Part shown: one piece after another, positions 26,710 through 44,100 of the stretch
How the letters are laid out: each line of letters begins with the position of its first letter
How positions within the stretch are numbered: the stretch's first letter is position 1
NCBI GenBank assembly: GCA_003971905.1
Contig: RSEE01000008.1
Location: forward strand, 496,001-560,000
Reading direction: 5' to 3'
From: Moniliella sp. 'wahieum'
Lineage: Eukaryota
DNA: 64,000 nt
Position numbers and translations under genes: made by a program
Notes under the pieces: model-generated
What the model was told of the DNA's origin: nothing
Database searches by the model: none
Seen by the model: the letters and a program-made list of their open reading frames with translations, nothing else

Positions 26710-26994
26710 GGGAGCCACATTAAAAGTGCCGTTTTTAGTCAAGGTGTTTGTTGGAACACGGATGCATCACGTGGCCCAAATTGCCTGTTCAATTTGAACG
26801 TTCAACATGCAATCTATGAGGATCTGGCCGATGCAGTTGAATACGGATCTGACGACTGGGGTTCCATCAGTTCTCTCTATTTGCCGCCTTCTTGTTGGGT
26901 TGAGGCGGTACCACGGATGCCAGCTCTATGCACAAGCAAAGTAAAGGGGAATGGGAAATTGATGGATCAGACTGTGGATTACGTCGCACAACGC

Positions 26995-29227
26995 TCAATT
27001 CTTCGTCTTTGCCGCGCGCACCTGCCTTCGGGTCTTGATGAGGCGAACGAGCGAGAGAGCAAGGGCACAGCCGCAGGGGCAAAGAGAGGGGTTGTAGATG
27101 GGCGTACTTGTGTTCGTCGGGGAAGTAGTAGAGCTGGGCAATCATAGAAGGGTGCAAGAAGTGCGGGTGTGAAAGGTAGGAGGCGTCCCATGCGTGGCGC
27201 AGCAGAGTTGTCGCAGTGTTGGTCGATAAGAGCGAGGGAGCAGCCATATGCAGTGCAGCAAGCGCCGCTTCAAAGTCAGCATGCACATGGCGGTCCACTC
27301 CCAGCGCCTCCATCTGTTGAATCAGACGGGTGGTGGAGCGCAGCGTATCCCGTGCAGCCCGTACATTTTCGTGGATCCGAGCAAGAGCGAGAAGATCGGG
27401 GGCAAAGCGTGGGCTGCTGCCGCCCTGACCAGGGGGATGCCCAACAGCTTACGAAGCTGCTTGTCCCATAGCAGCAGCGCATCGTCTAGCCGTTCGGGGC
27501 TCAAAGGTACAGCGTACCCAGTTTCTGGTTTTTGCTCCAGCACCACCCCGCCCCACTGGGGAATGACCCAGCTGTGCGATGGGCTCACGTCCCCATCCCC
27601 ACCGCGGACAAACAGGGGGCGGTGCCTTGGCGCAGGGACATAGTAAAGCATATGCAGCGTCTGTGGTTCTTCTTGTCTCTGTCCCGACCCTGGCGGTTCA
27701 GTCGTCTCCCGCCCATGGAGTGAAGGGTAACGGGAAGACTTCCTCCTAAGCTCCAGGCTCCGGCATTGACAAACGTTTGCAAATCAGCCGGCTCCACCAC
27801 TGAACGGTGGCGGTGTGATTGACGTCTTGCTCCTCCATAAACCACTGCAGCGCAAACGACCCATCGTCGGCGCCGGAGTCAGACCCAGACTCCTTTTGCT
27901 CAGAGCCCACCTCTTCTGTACTTGATGCGTCTGCAAGAGGTGGTGGCTCCTCGGGGGAGGAGGGGAGGTGAGCTTGGGACGAAGTGCCTCGGAGCTCTCG
28001 ACCTCCTTCACTGTCTCTGGAGAAACGTCATTGGGAGGAGGCAGGGATTCCGGAGATGCGGAAGCAATGGGAACCGCACGCTGAACTCGGACATATTCCT
28101 TGGCAGTCCAAGAAACCGTGTCGAGGGTAGGCTCAAAGGCAAGTGGAGCATGGAAGAGCATCTGTGTCGTCACCTGAAAATGGTGCAGCCCCAGCCGGGA
28201 AAGCGAGGCGAGGGTAGCTGCCAACCTGTCAGCCCCGTTGGTTTGCTGTAGTGTATGCTCTCCTTCGAGCACAGCAGGTGTGCGAGGATCAGCCTGTTCC
28301 CGGGCCAGCGACTGCTCCAGTGCGCTGGCCAAAGACCAAGAGGTGTATTGGTGCGAGTCGATCTCATCTCTTGCCGTGGGGGAGTTCCAAGGGGAATCAG
28401 TTGTATTGTCAGGGGTTGCAGCGACATCGAGATCGAGATCGGAATCAGTTGGAAGGAAGGTAGTGTCCTCCTGCACGAGGCTGAACACAATCTCGACTGA
28501 GCGCATGTACTGGATCGCCTTGCTCGAGGCTTCTCCCGCCGGATCCGACTGACACACTCCCCCAGTGTGAGAAAGGCATGAGATGGGGAACAATTCCAGG
28601 AAGCCGGCAGCAATGTTGGACCCGGCGTTGGGTGCAGCCACATCCACACTCAGGGGGGAGAACAGCCGACAACTCGGCCGCCGCCGGCTGGGAGGTGCTT
28701 TGTGAATCAACCACGCCGATGCGGTAGTCTAGCACATACCCATTGTGAGGTCCTTCCCAATCCGTTTCGTTCGAGCCGGAGAGGGAGTGAGTCAAGGCTT
28801 GAAGAGGAGTGGGGTACTCGTCTGTCTGAGGCGGGGACCACATCAAAGCGAATGCAGGCTGCAGCGCCACCATCGCCGCCGGACAATCGGTCGGACTGGT
28901 AGCCTGGCTAGCAGCGTGGCGGAGGACATCCTGGGTGTCTTGGGCAACAGCGACCCAATCCAATGTGTGTCCTCCATGGGGAACGAGGCGAATGCGGATC
29001 GGAAAGAGGGCAAGACAGTCTGGGGTGTCGGCGGGATCGGCATCGATGATGGTGTCGGCGGGCAATGCGCGGCGCTCGATGGCAGTGGTGTGCCACCAGG
29101 CGGGCAAGCAGGCGGCGGCAAGCAGCAGCACACTGCACAGGATAGCGCTGCGTACGCCCAGGCCCTGGAACGCATCAAGGCGCTTGCTAGGGCGCCGAAG
29201 CGCGGCAGCCAGCGACGCAGCCGTCAT
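26995..29227 (-). CDS. GPI17: GPI transamidase subunit PIG-S (GPI17); frameshifted
   Basis: N-terminal TM followed by LPAWWHTTAIERRALP, IVFSLVQED, QVTTQMLFHAPL, WVIPQWGGVV, QLRKLLGIP, and the C-terminal HPSMIAQLYYFPDEHKYA..PLFAPAAVPLL signature of PIG-S. Confidence 0.93.
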
Positions 29228-29675
29228 CGCAGCGCAGCCGGTTCGAGATGGGGGGAGAGGTGGGGGAAGGGAAATGGGAGGCGGGCGCGCCAGCTTCCGG
29301 CGGCAAGTCCAGGCTCAGTCTCGGGCTCAAGGCTCAACTTGAGCTGGTCGCCCTGATCACGGGCGTGGTTAGCTGGAGCTCAGCCTCGACTTGAAGTTGA
29401 AGGTTGAAGCTTCAAGGCCCAAGCTAGCCAAACGCTCGCGCTGCTCCCGCCTTCCTGGACGCCGGGCGGGGTGTGTTCCACCCGTCAATGTTGCAACTGT
29501 TCAATTGAAACGCACTCTTCGTGCGATGATCCGACGACGAGCGACTACCGACGACAGTCCTGAACGTTCAATTGAATGCATGTGGACCTCCCGCTAGCAG
29601 CAGCGCAACAGCAACACCACAGCAGCAGCCGTGTGGACACCACCTCCGTCGCCACAGCCACCACCGCCTGTCGCG

Positions 29676-32600
29676 ATGGACTGGGCCGCTGGCGCGTGGG
29701 TCCGCTTGACGCGCACCAGGCTCAATGTACTTCTGGCCACCGCCGCGCTCTCTATCGCGCTGTGGTGGGTGTGGGTGTGGCGGAGCTACCCAACCGGCTG
29801 GGGGCGACGCAGGCGTGCGAGATGAGCCGCATGTGGCCGGCCTACGCGGACTATACGCCGCGGATGGTCTCGCCCTCGGGCCTGGCGGCATCTGTACCAG
29901 GACGGTCCGGGAAATACCGCCTGCTGCTCTACCGTGAAGGCTACCTTCAGCCCCATCCAGATGCCTTCCCGCCCTCGGGCCAGCCTGCTCTCTTCGTCCC
30001 GGGCAACGCTGGCAGCTACGGCCAAGTACGCAGTGTGGCTTCCAGCGCAGCGTACCAGTACTGGTCCCATGACTACGTCGCAGATCCTTCTGCCTTTGAT
30101 GGCAGCCCTCGGCCCGAGTGGAGCAACCTGACTGCCCGCGGCATCGATTGGTGGACCATCGACTTTAACGAGGACTTTTCTGCCCTCCATGGTGACACCC
30201 TTGTTGAACAGGCCGTCTTTGTTAATGAGGCGATCACCTACCTCCAATCCCTTTACCCAGGCGACCACGTCCGTGTGCCTCTTCTGGCCCACTCCATGGG
30301 TGGAATCGTATCCCGCCTGGCCATGGCTCTCCCCGAGCACCCCCCACGCAGCGTCGACACGCTCGTGACCCTTTCCACCCCTCATGCCTATCCTGTTTTG
30401 GCTTTTGATGGAGGGATTGCAAGTGTCTACCGCCTCATCAATGCTGCGCCCGCCTTGCCCGACCCACCCTGCTGGTCAGCATTGCGGGTGGTGCGTTGGA
30501 TGTTCAAGTTTCCCCTGACGCTGCCAATATCGCCGTCCCCCGTCTGGAAGGGGGAAAACATTACCATCTCTAGCAATGCTGTGCCAGGAACGTGGTGCAG
30601 CGTCGACCACTTGGCCATCATGTGGTGCCACCAACTGCGTACCCGCGTCGCTACCGGTTTTCTGCAGTCGGCATTGCCCGGATACAGTAGCCAGCGGAAG
30701 GCCATGTGGCTCAAGGCCCTGGGAGTGGTCAATTATCAAGTCCCCTTCCTCCCGGCTGGCGAAGATGTCGAGATTGAAGCAGTGATAAACGAAATCTCGC
30801 TCGATTATGAGAATCCTGGTTCATCGCTGAGTCTGGTAACCAACAGAGCGCCCGCTACGGTCTTCCAGGTTAGGCTGTGCCACCAGCCTGTGGGTGGGCC
30901 GTGCTATCTTCTTCCACCTGAGCGCTGGAGACTTATGCCGCCATCTTCCGAGTACGCTTTGGATTTCCCTGATCCCAGCGTGACATATGGTACTCAAGGT
31001 CAGGGGCTGTGGCACGCGTTACTCTCGGTCGGTGCGTTGCGCGCATTGGGGATCCAGCAAATCTATGTTGAGCGGTTGGACCCGGACATTGCTGCATTCA
31101 TGGAGCCCACGTTTGCTCCGCCTCCTACTTTGGCCTCCGAGATCGCCGTGTCCACCATGGGGTCTTACACTCGAGTTCTTCTGCCCGAGGTGGACTCAAG
31201 CTTAAAAGTGTTCGAGCTTGAGGTCGATATTCCTCCTCGCCATTGCTTGCCCCCCACACGTTCAAGATTGGTTTCCATCCTTTGATTCGAGTCAGCAGCC
31301 AAAGCAGTTTGGATGAGGTATGGTCCCCTTCTCTCGATATGGGTGGCACCAATCGGCTTACGGTTGCGCTCACTGGCAGCGCACCGCTCTCACCCCCGCT
31401 CGACCCTTCGCAACGAGGAGCACTTGTCGAGTTGTGGATGGACAAAAAGCCCATGTCAGGTCTGGCAGCCGAATGCGACCGAGCACCTGTGCGCATTCGA
31501 GCCAAACGCCAATGGATCGCTTCGGCAGGGCGGGTGTTTATGCACGTACGCACCGCGTGGTTATTGTTCCGATCATCCAGCTTGCCTTCGTCTTGATTTT
31601 GGCCAAAATATCCCCATCTGGTATGTCAACCTGCCTTCTTGACCTGTTCCTTTTCTCTGACTCTTCCTTCTCCAGCCGGCACCACCACCCTCATTTTTCA
31701 ATCGCTTTTAGCATCAGGGGTTGCCTCGGCAGCTGTCCTTATCGCGTGCGACTTACTCGCCTCTGTCCTCCCTGCTTGGTCGGTCTACCCTTTCTTTAGC
31801 ACAGGCACCTTGGGGCTAAGCCTGACGTTTTCAGGGTTAAGTCTACCGGAACGAGTCGGGACTATACTCCTGGTCGTGCTGACGGGCCTGGCACTGACCC
31901 TCGCTGGTACGGGGATTTTAGGCATTCTTGTCACACTGTTCCGGCTAGGTGCTAAATGTCTACCCGCCCATACTCTCACCAGCGGGCCAAGTGCTGGCTC
32001 CCCAGCTCAAGCTCTTGGGGGTGGACGGTTTTGGCGTACGCTGCCCAGCGTAGTGATTGCACTTGCTGTGGGCTTGTTCGTTCCCCATCAGGTGGTGATT
32101 GTCGTCCTGCTGCTGATCCAGCTTGCCCTTGTCTCCGTCTTGCCCAATCGTGGGCCGAACAGCCGAGCTGACGCTTTGTTGCTCTATGTCCTCTTTTGGC
32201 TCATTCCTCTACGGGGCCCCGGGCTGTTTGTCTGGGTGCGCAACATGATCTTTGGTTGGTCGTCACCGGCCGGCATCAAACTTACCTCAATCCCTGGGCT
32301 GAGCGAGGCAAGCGGGGACCACAACCCGTTCTTTGTCCTCCCCTTTTTCGCCCTGGTTCAACGGAGTGTGTCCCAGTCCTTCCGTCCCATGTCTGTAACA
32401 CCACCAAATGGGCCTGGTCGGTTCCCTTACCTTGAACTCGCTGCCCTTCTTGTCGCGATCATTGTGGTTGCTGCCTTGGCGCCGTACAAGACCTACTTGT
32501 GCTTTGACGTGGTGTGCTTCCTCGCTGCGGCTTACTGGGCCACGACAGCGCACTGGCGACCGGCACCCAACGCTCGTCCCGACGTGGTGGAAGGCTACAC

Positions 32601-33435
32601 TTTCTCTCCGGATCAGCGCATTGAGCTGGGACCTCTCCTTCCCAGCCAAGTATCTGCCGCTTCTTCCCTGCCTGCCGAGTTGATCCCGCCGGATCTCGAG
32701 AGTGCAGGTAAGGGTGCGAGCAACGTCGAACGCATCGTCGAGACGGACAAAAAGGAGAAGCCTGACGGGCCCGAACATCTCATGGAAGGAGCCAGGGAGG
32801 AAGCGTCGGTGCCGCCCACACCTCATTCTCCCCCTCCCAGTCCACCCGTCCAGCTGGATCGTGCGATCAAGGCGTACCTGGACGAGGTAGATGTATACGA
32901 AGCGGCACGGGAACGAGCCCAGGCCGCTCTCGCAGGGGGCTTCATGTCACTTGCCAAGGCTCGGATGGAGGTACCAGCAGCCGGGCTGGGCGCACGAATC
33001 GGCAAGGATGGGTTGGATGCGCGCGTCCGGACGGCCAGCTTGCTCGTGCGAGTAGAGCAAGAACCTGATGGCCCCATTCGCTGGCGACTGGTCAAGCCCC
33101 CACCCCCTCCTCCACCCGAACCTTCACCCGAACCCGAATCCGAATCCAAAGGAGAGGGGAACAAGGCAGAGAACGCGCCTCCAAAAAAGACGCTTCGCCC
33201 GGTTGACCCTCTTTACCAGTTTGCTGCCCTACCTCCTCCGGCGCTGAGAAGGGCCCAAACGCAGTTCCGCGAGGCCTTGCTCGCCCTGGTAGGGCCTTTG
33301 GAATCTACGGCCTCTCCAGGATCTGACAAGGCCCACACCCATGGGGAAAACGCGCCCAAGCCTAGTATGGCTGAAAGCATTGCTGCGCTCAGTGGGCTGG
33401 CTGACCGCGTCCAAACCGCTCAAACGGAGCTATAA
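29676..33435 (+). CDS. BST1: GPI inositol deacylase BST1/PGAP1 with an in-frame C-terminal Vma22/CCDC115-like domain; frameshifted in the 5' half
   Basis: CEMSRMWP, KYRLLLYREG, PALFVPGNAGSYGQVRS, DFNEDFSALHG, lipase motif AHSMGG, TLSTPH and DHLAIMWC; a multi-TM region with DHNPF. The same ORF (31639-33435) then continues into a Vma22-like segment. Confidence 0.93.
32848..33435 (+). other. VMA22: Vma22/CCDC115-like V-ATPase assembly factor domain
   Basis: LDRAIKAYLDEVDVYEAARERAQAALAGGFMSLAKAR and DPLYQFAALPPPALRRAQTQFREAL match the two conserved blocks of the family (G-F/W-x-SLAKAR; DPL-x-x-F...P-x-x-LR-x-AQ-x-x-F). Confidence 0.8.
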
Positions 33436-33599
33436 CCCCCGCCCATCTGCAAAAAAGACTGTGCCTGGATCCCTCGTGACATGGATGCAATTATCGTCAG
33501 GTCTGTACGATCCATGTGCGATTGGCATGGCCAGGGGGCGTGTTGTCCAAAGAACATGTACGTTGGAGCCGGTATCGAAACAAGGTAGATGATTATAGA

Positions 33600-34948
33600 T
33601 CAATCCTTGAAAATTACTTCGGCGGACGAGGAGAAAATAGAAGCGTTCGCGTCACTCGTCCTTTCACTCGTCCTTACTCTTCGCCTCATCGTTGGTCGCC
33701 GTCTGCGACGCCACTTCGCGCAACCAAAGGTAGTTGCTGAAGAGCCAGCCAGGACCAAAGAAGACGAAATGGGGAGCGGAGAGAATCCACTGAGGCAAGA
33801 CCGGGTCAGCATTCGGTCCCTGTAGCAGGAAGAAGGAATACGGCGACTTACGTCTTCAAGCACGCGACGTCGCGGGTGGATTTGAACAATTTTGGTTTGT
33901 TCGACTTGCAGATCGTCGGCATACGCGTCAATCAACACCACCCAGTACTCGGCCGACGCGATCGCCAGCGTATCAAACAAAAGCAGCCATTCTCCATCAC
34001 TGCTCATACCACCCTTTTTGACCAGAGCATAAACGGCGCCCAGATAGTCCCGCGGGGACGAAACCAGCGTGGCACAGTCAAACAGAGCGTCACGGCCATC
34101 AAACAAGGTGAAGAGAAGTGTCTTTCCTTCGCGCCACATTAGCCACATGGAAAACATGCAGCCCAAGTAGGACATAATGCTGTTGTTCCAATACAGGTCG
34201 ATGATCGCCGAATGGTTCTTCTTGTTGCCAGGCGTGGCTTTAAAGAGCTTGGCGACCACAGGCGCCAAAACCAGAGGGAGGAAAAACAGAGGCGAAAACT
34301 GAAAAGCGACATTGGTCCACACCCACTGAGGGTGGTCCACCCCCAGGAACGTAGTCAACATACCTACTCCCCCAAAGGCGGCAGAGGCAATTTGCAAAAA
34401 CACAATGGCCAACGCCGGCGCGGGCGCGTACGAGGCACAAAGGCAGGGGAGCGGGCCTGGCGAAGGCGGTACCAAGCGTACCACGGGATGTAGAGGATGT
34501 TGAGTGCAGCACCCATCATGATAACCTGCCCCATCGACAGAATCAAGACGAACCACGAGACCAACAGGACCGTACAGCTCGGCTCCCGCAGCGCTTCCAC
34601 AAACATGCTGGACACCATGGGCGTGGCTGCCATGCCGAGGTACACCACTCCCCGCGACCAAAGCGGGTGGCAAGCATGTGCTTGAAGAATAAGACGAGCA
34701 CCCAGAAGAAATTTACGGCTGTGTCCCATGCGGTAGCAAGAGGGGCGGCAGGCGAGCCAGGGTCAAAGAAGGAGGCAAATGTGCCCTTGGAAGGAGACAG
34801 GCCCAGCTGCCGCTTGACATGGACGGGGCCTTTGCGGAGGCTGTGTTGCATCTCGCCAAAGGGGCCGTGATTTGCCGCCACAAAGACGGCGACGCCCACC
34901 GCGATGCCAAGCAAGGCGGGTAACAACGCCTCTGACTTGGCCGGGCAT
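33600..34948 (-). CDS. Multi-pass membrane protein of unknown function; frameshifted
   Basis: Joined fragments (34543-34926, 34364-34729, 33600-34673) give many hydrophobic helices and a basic C-terminus; ATG at 34948. Confidence 0.7.
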
Positions 34949-41155: not shown

Positions 41156-44100
41156 TCAAGAAGCAGGAGGGCAAGGGGATGGCATGGGTGGTTGGTGGAT
41201 ATCCTGTTCCCCACCCGTGGGAGGCACAGCAGATATGCCACATAATGATGGGTTTGAAGAGAATAGGAGTTGTTCAGGCATGCTTTGATCTTGGTTGGTT
41301 GTCAGGTTCAGCTTACGTGTTCGAACGGAGAAAGAAGCCTCATCCATCAGGTTGTACACCAAGTCCAACGGGCTATAAGGTGTCTTCCCTTCGGGCAGGT
41401 CGGGCACAGAGGACACATTCTCTCCCGGAACAGGAATGGAAGGGCCCAACGCGGGTGGGTTGCGGAGCAAAGAGCCCAAGGCTGGTGCGGAGCTACCCAC
41501 AAGATCGATGCTCTGGCTTCGGTGTATGTGAGACCAGCTGGGGAACACCAGAGTCGGGCTATCCCGAAGCGGTCCTTGAACTGAAAGTGAACGTCCATGA
41601 ACCGGGGCATCCGTCGCTTCGTTGTCGGTTTTCGTCCCTGCTGTTTCACTTGACAATGTGGGAAGGGGGAAAGAAACAGACGAAGCAATGGAAGAGCCTT
41701 GGTTGACTCGGACCACGTATGCCCGTTTGAGTGACTTTGTTGTCTGGCGTGTGGGGTCGACGGTAGCCTTGCCCAAAATATCGACGCTATCCAACCCATC
41801 AATGAGTTCTCCATCGCTGTGTTCACTGATCGAACCGGTTGCCGTAGAAGCCACAGAGAAAGAGCGTTCATCGGGACTGCTTGCAAGGACCGGTGCACTG
41901 TCTCTCAGTAATGGGGAAAGCGCCGTCGGGGTTCCTGGGTCATCCTGATCCAAAGAAAAGAGCTGCTCCAAGAGTGACTGGCGCCGAGGGGAAACTGTCC
42001 CCGCATCTGATGACCCACTGTGGTTCACTGAATCGTGTTGATCCAGATAATGAGATAAACCGGTGCCGTAGTCATCGTCGTCATCTTCGTTCAGCACGGC
42101 GTTCAGTATGTCATCAAGCATACTCTCATTTTCCGTCTGTTCCTCTTCGTTATCATATGAAACAGAACGCTGGCGGTCAAAGGGGGACACTAACCCAAGT
42201 GAGGCAGTCGAAGTAGTGTCGGATGCGGAATCATGCGCCGTTGACCCAGAGCTTCTGGGTGTTGAGTTCAAGCCTTCATGGTGTTCAAGGTTGTTACCAT
42301 CAAAAAATGTCATGGTATTGGGGCTGTTGTAGAGAGAATCGAACAGAGACCGTCGCTGAGCGTCGTGCTTGGTGGATTCCAAACCTGGCTCCAACGTGGG
42401 GCTCCAACCGCAAACCGGACCTTTCCTAGTCACCACAGATGTGGACAACCGACGAATAGTTTCGGTCTGGCGGAGAATGAAGGTTGGGTCTGACGGACGC
42501 AAGGCGGAGACAATGTTCTGGGTCAAGGGGGAACCGATTCTCTGATGTGTGGAGCCGGAGATTGAGGCCAAAGGTGGGGCATTGTGGAGAGGTGGTGGTT
42601 GGGAAAAGGCTTCGTACACAGATGCACTTAGACGGAGTGCACGTTCGGTGTTGTCTTGACTTACCATCGTTAGACCGTAACTCACCGTACCTTCTTCTTC
42701 CCCGGTGGGTGCTCCAGAAAGCCTGGCGGTCTCATCGCCACCGTCTGATACGCCAGGCACATTAAAGTGCTCCAGGGCAAGTTCTACCAGTTCAGCGGCA
42801 GTAGCGGATCGGGCGAGAGTCAAAACAGCTTCGGCGTATGATCTTCTCTGGTTCGTAGGGACAATGGTGGAATGCCTCTTTTGTATCACCGTGCCGGAGG
42901 CGTCCAGCGTCAGCGACCGAGGAAGGTCATCTATAAGCAGAACGATGCGCACGCCAAAACGCAACGGCGTGTGTGAAACTGATGGGGAAGAGAGTCTTGA
43001 TGCGGAATAAGGGGCTACTCTGCTACTCTTGGATGCACTAAAGTTCCCAATCGGAGCCAAAAAGAACTTGAATGTGTGGTCATCGTAAAAATCGCTACTC
43101 CAACGCCGCTCGGAAGAGGAGACAGGGGCGCCTCCGTCTAAACTGAGAGCAGACCAACGCACTGATGGAAGGGACTTTTTCGTCAACCCTTCGTACACCT
43201 TCAGAGGATGCTCGTCAGGTTCAAGTGTCCACTCATCACCATCCAACACATGAACTCGAAGGGAAAAGCTGCTTTCCAGCGACTTGCGGTTTCCCTCCCA
43301 CTCGCCCCGGCCAGCGAGCCCGAACCGCTGGACCGCCTGAAGCACAATTTCTCGCGATGTCGTCGACTCGGTGAGAAGCACTGTCTTGTATGCCACACTG
43401 GTGCCCAACATTGCCATAGCAAAGACACGGATGACATGGAGGGTGTACCGGCCTGCTTCGCCTGGAGGGATTTGTAGGCTCCCGCGAGTGCGTTTGCCCA
43501 TGGCAGAGTCAACCAAAAGGGATGTTGAGGTCCCTGCCGCATTGAAGGTGGAAACGCTGGGCTCCGTGATGAGAGTGTTTTGAGGCGGTAAGTTGTTTTC
43601 CCGTATGGACGTAACCGTTGAGTCGTCAGAAAATGATGAAGTCGACAATGGCTCTGGTTGCGTCCTCGGGTCTGGGGGAAGAATGGACCCATTGTTTGAT
43701 AGGGAGTTGGGCGCATCGAGGCTCCCCATTCTGGCCAAAGCAGTTGCATTGTTGACATTCGCCTCGTTCAAACCGTTTGAGCTTGGCTGTACCACAGCAC
43801 CCCCCATTAAGGGGAACTCATGGTGAGAGAAGAAGGCACATCCGATACGAGGTGCTCCTTGAATGTGATCGTTCGTATTTGTGTGAATACGTCCTCTTGG
43901 TGCTGAAGCTCGAGCTGTGCGGCGTAGTAAGCCTCCTGCTGGGCGTAGTATTCGCTACTTCTGGAATATGAAGAGCCTTGACCACCCGAAAGCCAGAGGT
44001 TTGGTGAAGAGTTGTTGCCGGTGTTGGCGTGGTGAACGGGGGGGTGCGGTTCAATACTTGTCGCGTATTGGGTCGGCATCAGTTGTTGAGCTGGGTTATC

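What the first reader, a model, noticed from the sequence alone, without database searches (positions are those of the whole stretch)
31639..33435. Apparent gene fusion: GPI inositol deacylase BST1 plus V-ATPase assembly factor Vma22/CCDC115
Seen: one uninterrupted 598-codon ORF carries the BST1 C-terminal TM region, a linker of about 100 aa, and both conserved Vma22/CCDC115 blocks. Established: in yeast and animals these are separate genes; Vma22 is a peripheral ER protein recruited by Vma12/TMEM199, and CCDC115 defects cause a glycosylation disorder. Inference: Bst1 could tether Vma22 to the ER and couple GPI remodelling to V-ATPase assembly. An in-frame ATG at 32782 could also yield free Vma22. 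I cannot check whether related smut fungi share this fusion.
Basis: partly seen in the sequence, partly recalled or inferred. Interest (0 to 1): 0.72.

Follow-up and report, generated by a model that had tools for sequence, protein, structure and literature searches.

The report
Bst1-Vma22 fusion gene of smut fungi
In this fungus, and in every smut-fungus or Malassezia relative examined, the gene for an enzyme that trims GPI anchors runs straight on into the gene for a helper that assembles the cell's proton pump, so the helper is probably made already tied to the membrane of the endoplasmic reticulum.

Summary
One open frame (31597-33435, + strand) carries a PGAP1/Bst1 membrane domain, an unconserved linker of about 95 residues, and a complete Vma22/CCDC115 domain. 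Its first 26 codons lie before or inside an intron, and the real exon starts at 31675.

The fusion is not an accident of this assembly. All 49 best full-length Bst1 relatives end in a Vma22 domain. The named ones cover all three classes of Ustilaginomycotina. None of the next 71 relatives (ascomycetes, Mucoromycota, Kwoniella) does. Linkers range from 16 to 140 residues, cannot be aligned, and stay in frame. 15 of 55 contain no methionine. A metagenome contig shows the junction inside a single 1420-codon frame.

The folds match solved PGAP1 (Z 12.8) and yeast Vma22p (Z 9.4). PGAP1's ten-helix layout puts the tail in the cytosol, which is where Vma22 works.

No transcript or protein data could be obtained. 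The lipase half of this copy has frame slips, most likely assembly errors. Six literature searches found no description of the fusion, although database entries already show the architecture. It is a new variant of known families, of moderate interest.

The parts
29676..29762 (+). Probable BST1 start codon (ATG 29676) and first membrane helix, read in a different frame from the rest of exon 1
   Evidence: Three-frame translation. Position of the ATG. The frameshift-aware alignment to P0009 puts a slip near 29763. Similarity on the helix side is weak.
29762..31222 (+). Bst1/PGAP1 luminal part: lipase domain with the AHSMGG serine motif and the DH histidine motif, followed by the beta-sandwich region. 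The Asp motif LLVSIAGGALDVQV (about 30455-30526) lies out of frame.
   Evidence: Pfam PF07819, E 1.8e-55. tblastn to Tilletiaria anomala P0009, 43% identity over 510 residues. Slips at about 30455 and 30526.
31273..31621 (+). End of the luminal region and second membrane helix (VVIVPIIQLAFVLILAKI). Probable further slips near 31268 and 31558.
   Evidence: tblastn and three-frame reading. Frameshift-aware alignment.
31622..31674 (+). Spliceosomal intron, 53 nt, GTATGT...CTGAC...CAG
   Evidence: Sequence. The relative P0002 aligns from 31675 onward.
31675..32556 (+). Bst1 membrane domain, eight helices (helices 3-10 of PGAP1)
   Evidence: Pfam PGAP1_TMD. AlphaFold2 helices H4-31 to H270-294. Structural match of model residues 8-294 to C. 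thermophilum PGAP1 8k9t_A residues 813-1153: Z 12.8, rmsd 3.7, 224 aligned. Hydrophobicity.
32557..32841 (+). Disordered cytosolic linker (residues 295-389 of the exon product). Holds the non-conserved in-frame ATG at 32782 and a GTAAGG at 32709.
   Evidence: pLDDT is under 50 for most of residues 299-381 (segments 299-311, 313-333, 338-381). The linker is not alignable among relatives, at 16-140 residues. Coding-like GC1/GC2/GC3 of 0.73/0.51/0.62, against 0.47/0.49/0.56 downstream of the stop. No in-frame stop.
32842..33432 (+). Vma22/CCDC115 domain: long helix, two beta strands, variable Pro/Glu-rich loop, conserved PLYQFAALPPPALRRAQ helix, C-terminal helix
   Evidence: Pfam PF21730, 52.1 bits against cut-off 28. 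The profile of 87 relatives hits only yeast VMA22 8eas_A, E 9.1e-23. AlphaFold2 pLDDT 81.5. Foldseek top hit 8eas_A. VIA Z 9.4, rmsd 3.0, 127 of 130 residues.
33433..33435 (+). Stop codon TAA of the fused frame

Best explanation
This is the BST1/PGAP1 orthologue of a Ustilaginomycotina fungus, and its C-terminal cytosolic tail has become the organism's Vma22/CCDC115 domain.

The fusion is old. It is present in Ustilaginomycetes, Exobasidiomycetes and Malasseziomycetes, and the reading frame has been kept across a fast-evolving disordered linker.

The product is most likely one polypeptide with four parts:
- a luminal GPI inositol deacylase;
- a ten-helix membrane domain in the endoplasmic reticulum (ER);
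- a flexible cytosolic linker of 16-140 residues;
- a Vma22 domain.

Elsewhere Vma22 is a soluble protein held at the ER membrane only by Vma12. Here it is inferred to be covalently anchored to an ER-resident protein. The linker would let it reach subunit d on top of the nascent VO ring, where it blocks V1 binding and helps load subunit a. The anchor would keep it, and any unfinished VO bound to it, in the ER.

What is shown: the fused frame, its conservation, both folds, and a compatible topology. What is inferred: translation as a single chain, tethered function, and any cross-talk with GPI-anchor remodelling.
For: (1) Both Pfam families lie in one frame.

(2) The search of 1.84 billion representatives with the Vma22 part gave 209 hits. 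Of the best 150, 16 are 1082-1527 residues long with Vma22 at the C-end. Pfam on 15 of these shows PGAP1 plus PGAP1_TMD in all 15 and Vma22 in 14. The 16th, P0001, carries all three families in precomputed annotation.

(3) Searching with the lipase part, the top 49 of 120 listed relatives all end in Vma22. 43 do so by precomputed Pfam. The other 6 match by phmmer at the C-end. 0 of the next 71 do.

(4) Named carriers include Tilletiaria, Tilletia (3 species), Microstroma, Violaceomyces, Thecaphora, Sporisorium, Ustilago, Pseudozyma, Moesziomyces, Kalmanozyma, Melanopsichium and more than ten Malassezia species. One search's names for the six phmmer-only carriers add Sympodiomycopsis, Parajaminaea and Jaminaea. 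The lineages of five carriers were checked and span three classes of Ustilaginomycotina.

(5) The nearest relative P0002 is colinear through the linker at 47% identity, and its gaps keep the frame.

(6) Linkers are 16-140 residues (median 97) in 55 sequences, and 15 of the 55 have no Met. The Malassezia-type linkers (named Malassezia entries and unnamed rows grouping with them) of 16-44 residues leave no room for a terminator and promoter.

(7) In the DNA of metagenome contig L001, one 1420-codon frame runs from the Bst1 N-terminus into the Vma22 helix.

(8) In a tree of the Vma22 domain, all 77 fused rows fall in one branch with 96% local support. 17 proteins were re-scanned by Pfam, 16 of them from the 22 short 'stand-alone' rows inside that branch. 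6 of the 17 start with the last helices of PGAP1_TMD, so they are fragments of fused genes.

(9) Structure: Z 12.8 to PGAP1 8k9t_A up to its residue 1153, and Z 9.4 to Vma22p 8eas_A.

(10) Topology: PGAP1 has 10 helices with the lipase in the lumen (PMC10761859). This copy has helix 1, helix 2, and eight more helices in the last exon. Vma22p sits on the cytosolic side on subunit d (PMC9963935).
Against: There is no transcript or protein evidence. No RNA run could be listed and no genome is held for this window.

A few close relatives appear as short Vma22-only proteins. These include Ceraceosorus bombacis (245 aa, a Ustilaginomycotina member) and P0003 (294 aa, 46-53% identical to the window, beginning with Met). 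P0006, P0007, P0012, P0015, P0050, P0055, P0064 and P0129 show no membrane-domain remnant. They may be fragments, split gene models or true secondary fissions, and their DNA could not be read.

Openness of the linker in this window alone is only about a 1-in-20 to 1-in-40 event.

The lipase half of this copy carries at least two certain and three probable frame slips. As assembled, a full-length product cannot be read off this sequence.

Many database proteins are gene predictions, which join any open frame. Named fungal entries are therefore not independent proof of a single transcript.
Confidence: 0.8

Rival explanations
1. The gene is fused, but Vma22 acts mainly as a free protein. It would be released by an internal promoter and start codon (ATG 32782 here) or by proteolytic cleavage in the linker.
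For: There is an in-frame ATG 20 codons before the first helix of the domain. The linker is long and disordered, so it would be accessible to proteases. Short Met-initiated Vma22-only proteins exist among relatives. Yeast Vma22p works as a soluble partner of Vma12p (PMC9963935).
Against: The Met is not conserved in the nearest relative. 15 of 55 linkers have no Met. Some linkers are only 16-34 residues. No conserved cleavage-like motif was established. The frame would not need to be kept open across the subphylum if only a separate transcript mattered.
Confidence: 0.12
2. In this particular organism the BST1 catalytic half is decaying: the frame slips are real. Only a shorter membrane-domain-plus-Vma22 protein would still be made.
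For: There are five slips in about 2 kb of the 5' half and none in the 1.76-kb last exon. Other frames in the window stay open for up to 2.8 kb, for example 41159-43954.
Against: All catalytic motifs are intact at the codon level, and there are no stops in the homologous frames. Identity to Tilletiaria is 43%, as expected for a live gene. The slips at about 30526 and 31268, and one in the neighbouring PIG-S gene, lie at C5 or C6 runs; those near 30455 and 31558 lie at shorter C or G runs and the one near 29763 at no run. That pattern is typical of sequencing error. GPI anchoring is essential in fungi (general knowledge).
Confidence: 0.06
3. These are two separate neighbouring genes that look joined only through a chance open frame or an assembly indel in the linker.
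For: A linker of this composition is open by chance in 2.5-5% of cases. The assembly does contain indel-like slips nearby. A stop lies in another frame at 32681.
Against: The same in-frame junction is seen in 49 of 49 closest Bst1 relatives and in independent contigs, with unrelated linker sequences. Linker codon-position composition is coding-like. The nearest relative is colinear through the linker.
Confidence: 0.02

Closest known systems
Vma22p of Saccharomyces cerevisiae (PDB 8EAS chain A) / human CCDC115
   Same: Same Pfam family (PF21730). The profile hit is E 9.1e-23. Same fold: a twisted helix pair plus two beta strands and a disordered loop after them (fold description from PMC9963935). 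The C-terminal helix motif is conserved.
   Different: It is not a free soluble protein. It forms the C-terminal domain of a ten-helix membrane enzyme. Binding to Vma12, subunit d and subunit F was not tested.
Bst1p / PGAP1 GPI inositol deacylase (Chaetomium thermophilum structures 8K9Q, 8K9R, 8K9T)
   Same: Lipase domain (PF07819), beta-sandwich region and membrane domain occur in the same order. The membrane domain superposes up to residue 1153 of the 1183-residue C. thermophilum protein (length from PMC10761859).
   Different: It carries about 290 extra C-terminal residues (linker plus Vma22). Ascomycete, Mucoromycota and Kwoniella Bst1 proteins end soon after helix 10: 0 of 71 have Vma22.
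Annotated 'GPI inositol-deacylase' / 'PGAP1-domain-containing protein' entries of Ustilaginomycotina, e.g. Tilletiaria anomala XP_013243697.1, Sporisorium reilianum 'related to BST1', Malassezia pachydermatis XP_017993106.1
   Same: They have the same three-domain architecture. They are orthologues at 43-47% identity in the lipase part.
   Different: They are named only after the deacylase. The Vma22 domain is not mentioned in their names, and none of six full-text searches found it discussed.
Vma12p / TMEM199, the usual membrane anchor of Vma22
   Same: By inference, the Bst1 membrane domain does part of what Vma12 does: it holds Vma22 at the cytosolic face of the ER membrane.
   Different: There is no sequence or fold relation. 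Here the link is covalent. Whether Vma12 still exists in these fungi could not be checked.

Membership tests
Vma22/CCDC115 (Pfam PF21730) | Sequence match above the curated Pfam cut-off | tested here: met
   52.1 bits (domain alone) and 48.9 bits (whole frame) against a cut-off of 28.
Vma22/CCDC115 (Pfam PF21730) | Homology to the experimentally defined yeast Vma22p | tested here: met
   The profile of 87 relatives hits only 8eas_A 'Vacuolar ATPase assembly protein VMA22', E 9.1e-23.
Vma22/CCDC115 (Pfam PF21730) | Fold: twisted helix pair abutted by two antiparallel strands, like V1 subunit D | tested here: met
   AlphaFold2 gives H21-66, E88-93, E99-104, H153-170 and H196-216 at pLDDT 81.5. 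The top Foldseek hit is 8eas_A, followed by subunit D chains. VIA Z 9.4, rmsd 3.0, 127 of 130 residues.
Vma22/CCDC115 (Pfam PF21730) | Soluble stand-alone protein that forms an obligate heterodimer with Vma12 | tested here: not met
   The domain is encoded in frame behind a ten-helix membrane protein. The stand-alone part of this feature is therefore not met. Binding to Vma12 could not be tested because no Vma12 sequence of this organism was available.
Vma22/CCDC115 (Pfam PF21730) | Required for VO assembly in the ER | not testable with these tools
   This needs genetics, for example a Vma-minus phenotype after removing the domain.
Bst1/PGAP1 GPI inositol deacylase | PGAP1-like alpha/beta hydrolase domain | tested here: met
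   PF07819, E 1.8e-55, 188.7 bits against a cut-off of 24.3.
Bst1/PGAP1 GPI inositol deacylase | Catalytic Ser-Asp-His motifs in one reading frame | tested here: inconclusive
   The Ser motif AHSMGG and the His motif VDHLAIMWC are in the long frame. The Asp motif LLVSIAGGALDVQV is intact but shifted by one base between about 30455 and 30526. Whether this is an assembly error or a real shift is unresolved.
Bst1/PGAP1 GPI inositol deacylase | C-terminal multi-helix membrane domain (PGAP1_TMD) as in the solved structure | tested here: met
   PF25140, 33.8 bits against a cut-off of 25.3. Z 12.8 to 8k9t_A residues 813-1153. Eight helices in the last exon plus helix 2 upstream.
Bst1/PGAP1 GPI inositol deacylase | N-terminal anchor helix before the CxMSxMWP motif | tested here: inconclusive
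   A suitable helix follows ATG 29676 but is read in another frame than the motif.
Bst1/PGAP1 GPI inositol deacylase | Inositol deacylase activity on GPI-anchored proteins | not testable with these tools
   This needs a biochemical or PI-PLC sensitivity assay.

The most novel reading that the evidence does not exclude
The fusion is a natural 'Rosetta stone'. In an entire fungal subphylum, Bst1 would be the physical platform for V-ATPase VO assembly. ER-exit licensing of GPI-anchored proteins and quality control of the proton pump would then be mechanistically coupled. Bst1 may have partly or wholly replaced Vma12 as the membrane anchor of Vma22. If so, an unrecognised Bst1-Vma12/22 contact could also exist in yeast and humans, where PGAP1, CCDC115 and TMEM199 defects cause disease.
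Probability: 0.2. Interest if true: 0.8.

Novelty: new variant of a known kind. Interest (0 to 1): 0.55.

Why it matters
Vma22/CCDC115 and Bst1/PGAP1 are both well studied and both linked to human disease, but they have never been connected.

A covalent fusion kept across three classes of fungi shows that Vma22 can work, or has had to work, while permanently tied to an ER membrane protein through a linker as short as 16 residues. The carriers include the model Ustilago relatives and the skin yeast Malassezia. This constrains models of how the Vma12-22 complex docks on and leaves VO.

The fusion also poses a directly testable question: are GPI-anchor remodelling and proton-pump assembly coordinated? 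In practice, genome annotations of these fungi name the protein only as a deacylase. A search for VMA22 by name in these genomes would therefore wrongly conclude that it is missing.

Tried and rejected
- **Own genome:** not held. Stand-alone VMA22 and VMA12 could therefore not be sought in this organism.
- **RNA runs:** none was listed for 31000-33700.
- **Word-indexed search with the Vma22 part at similar length:** found only P0003 and says nothing about stand-alone forms.
- **Metagenome scan with alignment A1:** 32 pattern matches, of which only 1 was confirmed (L001).
- **Possible in-frame intron in the linker** (GTAAGG at 32709, CTGAC at about 32761, CAG ending at 32795; 87 nt). It is neither supported nor excluded. 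It would be longer than the two introns seen here (53 and about 64 nt), the branch site is far from the acceptor, and the stretch has coding-like codon-position composition. It would not break the fusion.
- **Frameshift-aware alignment:** it also proposed events at 31399, 31472, 31751 and 32686, plus 'introns' at 31590-31717 and 32714-32853. These lie in regions without similarity, and I disregard them.
- **Maximum-likelihood tree:** the first run did not finish and was replaced by FastTree. The domain is short and support is local only, so the tree is used only for the grouping of fused rows.
- **Foldseek on the Vma22 model alone:** no hit at E <= 0.001. The best was 8eas_A at E 0.011. The VIA second look and the sequence profile settled the match.
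- **Earlier notes of this scan**: nothing on this locus or this fusion.
- **Literature:** six full-text searches found no paper on the fusion. They were Vma22+Bst1+fusion; Vma22+Ustilago; Vma22+PGAP1; Vma22+Malassezia; CCDC115+deacylase; and Bst1/V-ATPase/GPI-anchored/Vma21. Subscription journals are not covered.
- **Complex prediction:** not used, because no partner from this organism was available.
Full report
**Observation.** The + strand of the window has a stop-to-stop open frame at 31597-33435, 612 codons. Pfam finds two families in it. PGAP1_TMD covers residues 74-264 (E 3.1e-8, 33.8 bits, cut-off 25.3). Vma22_CCDC115 covers residues 424-559 (E 1.2e-12, 48.9 bits, cut-off 28). The frame just upstream, 29576-31285, holds the PGAP1 lipase domain (E 1.8e-55). 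One correction is needed. 31622-31674 is a classical 53-nt intron (GTATGT...CTGAC...CAG), and the coding exon starts at 31675, where the nearest relative also begins to align.

**Is the open frame more than chance?** In this window alone, only mildly. 5% of shuffles of the 102-codon linker have no stop, and local non-coding composition predicts 2.5%. Codon-position GC in the linker (0.73/0.51/0.62) resembles the flanking coding parts and differs from the DNA after the stop (0.47/0.49/0.56). The decisive evidence is comparative.

**Relatives found with the Vma22 part.** I searched 1.84 billion representative proteins with the 217-residue Vma22 part and got 209 hits at E <= 0.001.
- Of the best 150, 16 are 1082-1527 residues long with the match at their C-terminal end, 5 are 400-999 residues and 129 are shorter.
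- Pfam on 15 of the 16 long ones shows PGAP1 plus PGAP1_TMD in all 15 and Vma22 in 14. P0108 is below the Pfam threshold but was matched by phmmer.
- The 16th, P0001, is a Tilletia horrida 'GPI inositol deacylase' and carries all three families in precomputed annotation.
- Four of the five mid-length proteins (P0002, P0018, P0042, P0117) and the short P0004 and P0008 hold the end of the membrane domain followed by Vma22.

**Relatives found with the lipase part.** I searched with the lipase part for relatives of at least 997 residues. This gave 122 hits at E <= 1e-20, of which 120 are listed.
- The first 49 rows all end in a Vma22 domain. 43 do so by precomputed Pfam. The remaining six (P0193 Sympodiomycopsis, P0194 Parajaminaea, P0204 Jaminaea, P0198, P0206, P0108) match by phmmer at their C-ends. 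Those E-values are relative to a small local set.
- The next 71 rows are ascomycetes, Mucoromycota, Coemansia and Kwoniella. None of the 71 has Vma22 by either method.
- Named carriers include Tilletiaria anomala, three Tilletia species, Microstroma, Violaceomyces, Thecaphora, Sporisorium, Ustilago, Pseudozyma, Moesziomyces, Kalmanozyma, Melanopsichium and more than ten Malassezia species.
- The taxonomy tool places checked examples in Exobasidiomycetes, Malasseziomycetes and Ustilaginomycetes, all within Ustilaginomycotina.
- Named stand-alone Vma22 proteins among the 13 short hits looked up (5 of them named) come from Sporobolomyces (Pucciniomycotina), Zymoseptoria and Polychaeton (ascomycetes). 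One comes from a Ustilaginomycotina member, Ceraceosorus bombacis, at 245 aa.

**The junction.**
- The nearest relative, P0002, is an unnamed contig frame of 575 aa. It is colinear with the window from 31675 to the stop at 47% identity. The linker is poorly conserved, all gaps keep the frame, and the window's Met at 32782 is absent.
- In an alignment of 55 fused or junction-spanning proteins, the stretch between the last membrane helix and the first Vma22 helix is 16-140 residues (median 97) and cannot be aligned. 15 of the 55 have no Met there. The Malassezia-type linkers (named Malassezia entries and unnamed rows that group with them in the tree) are 16-44 residues, too short to hold a terminator and a promoter.
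- At DNA level, metagenome contig L001 is Tilletia-like. It has one 1420-codon frame running from the Bst1 N-terminus through the linker into the Vma22 helix. A one-base slip lies just before the PLYQF block.
- In a FastTree of the Vma22 domain (215 rows), all 77 fused rows fall in one branch with 96% local support, together with 22 short rows.
- 17 proteins were re-examined by Pfam: 16 of those 22 short rows plus P0287, which is identical to P0015 in the tree. Six of them (P0013, P0020, P0030, P0034, P0051, P0166) begin with profile positions of about 276-324 of PGAP1_TMD. They are therefore fragments of fused genes.
- P0003 is the closest short form. It begins in a stretch that aligns with the window's linker, which suggests another fragment. 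Its DNA could not be read.

**Structure and topology.**
- AlphaFold2 of the Vma22 part, with 87 sequences, gives pLDDT 81.5 and the expected layout: a long helix, two strands, a loop and helices.
- Foldseek's top hit is yeast Vma22p (8eas_A, E 0.011, probability 1.00), followed by V-ATPase subunit D chains. A sequence profile hits only 8eas_A, at E 9.1e-23.
- AlphaFold2 of the whole last exon (586 aa, 55 sequences, pLDDT 68.2) gives eight membrane helices up to residue 294. Between them and the Vma22 domain, most of residues 299-381 have pLDDT below 50; the domain starts at residue 390.
- VIA-align matches model residues 8-294 to C. thermophilum PGAP1 8k9t_A residues 813-1153 (Z 12.8, rmsd 3.7, 224 aligned). 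It matches residues 395-579 to 8eas_A (Z 9.4, rmsd 3.0, 127 of 130 residues).
- The PGAP1 paper describes ten membrane helices. Helix 1 anchors the loop that leads to the luminal lipase (PMC10761859, sections 9 and 10 read). Nine helices follow the luminal part, so I infer that the tail is cytosolic.
- The Vma12-22 paper shows that Vma22p is soluble, forms an obligate heterodimer with Vma12p, and sits on subunit d in the place of V1 subunit D (PMC9963935, passages read). The fusion is therefore topologically workable.

**Mechanism.** The fused frame, its conservation, both folds and the compatible topology are shown. The following is inferred. The gene yields one chain in which Vma22 is tied to ER-resident Bst1 by a flexible cytosolic linker. 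This fixes Vma22 at the ER membrane, keeps it and any bound, unfinished VO from leaving, and couples its expression to Bst1. Whether the two activities talk to each other is open, and so is whether Vma12 is still needed.

**Caveat on this copy.** The 5' half of BST1 cannot be read in one frame.
- The Asp motif LLVSIAGGALDVQV matches 12 of 14 residues of Tilletiaria's motif, but it is shifted by one base between about 30455 and 30526.
- Further probable slips lie near 29763, 31268 and 31558.
- The slips at about 30526 and 31268 sit at C5/C6 runs; those near 30455 and 31558 lie at shorter C or G runs, and the one near 29763 at no run.
- The neighbouring PIG-S gene has the same kind of slip at a C5 run near 27410, with no room for an intron.
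- All motifs are intact at codon level.

I read these as assembly indel errors, but real recent decay is not excluded. The last exon shows no slip against P0002.

**What is known.** Six full-text searches found no paper on this fusion. The architecture is nevertheless visible in public protein entries, which are named only as deacylases. Earlier notes of this scan hold nothing on it.

**Verdict.** This is a real, ancient fusion of two known families that appears not to have been discussed in print. It is of moderate interest and is directly testable in Ustilago maydis or Malassezia.

Noticed in passing
window 29700-31600 (+): The BST1 lipase half has at least two certain and three probable one-base frame slips, near 29763, 30455, 30526, 31268 and 31558. 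The slips near 30526 and 31268 sit at C5 or C6 runs; the others lie at shorter C or G runs or at no run. The catalytic Asp motif is out of frame although intact. This is probably assembly error.
   Followed up: partly
window 26870-29314 (-): A PIG-S (GPI transamidase subunit Gpi17) gene lies head to head with BST1, about 360 bp from its ATG, so two GPI-pathway genes form a divergent pair. It also has a frame slip at a C5 run near 27400-27424, where there is no room for an intron.
   Followed up: partly
L001 4085-4110: This Tilletia-like metagenome contig has a one-base frame slip inside the variable loop of the Vma22 domain, just before the conserved PLYQFAALPPP block. It is either an assembly error or a real shift.
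   Followed up: no
protein P0168: A 1242-aa Bst1-Vma22 protein is filed under the fern Adiantum nelumboides. It clusters at 90% identity with a Meira miltonrushii fragment, so it is probably fungal sequence inside a plant assembly.
   Followed up: no
window 32640-32680 and linkers of relatives: Many otherwise unalignable linkers carry a short [LIV]-P-x-[ESA]-[LI]-like motif shortly before the Vma22 helix, for example SLPAELIPPDL here. It may be a short docking motif.
   Followed up: no
protein P0275: The Kwoniella newhampshirensis Bst1 entry also carries PF11968 (a 25S rRNA methyltransferase domain). This is probably two gene models merged by the predictor.
   Followed up: no
window 33603-34712 (-): A convergent neighbour has a 370-codon frame that looks like a multi-helix membrane protein. 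It has no Pfam match even at E 0.1.
   Followed up: partly
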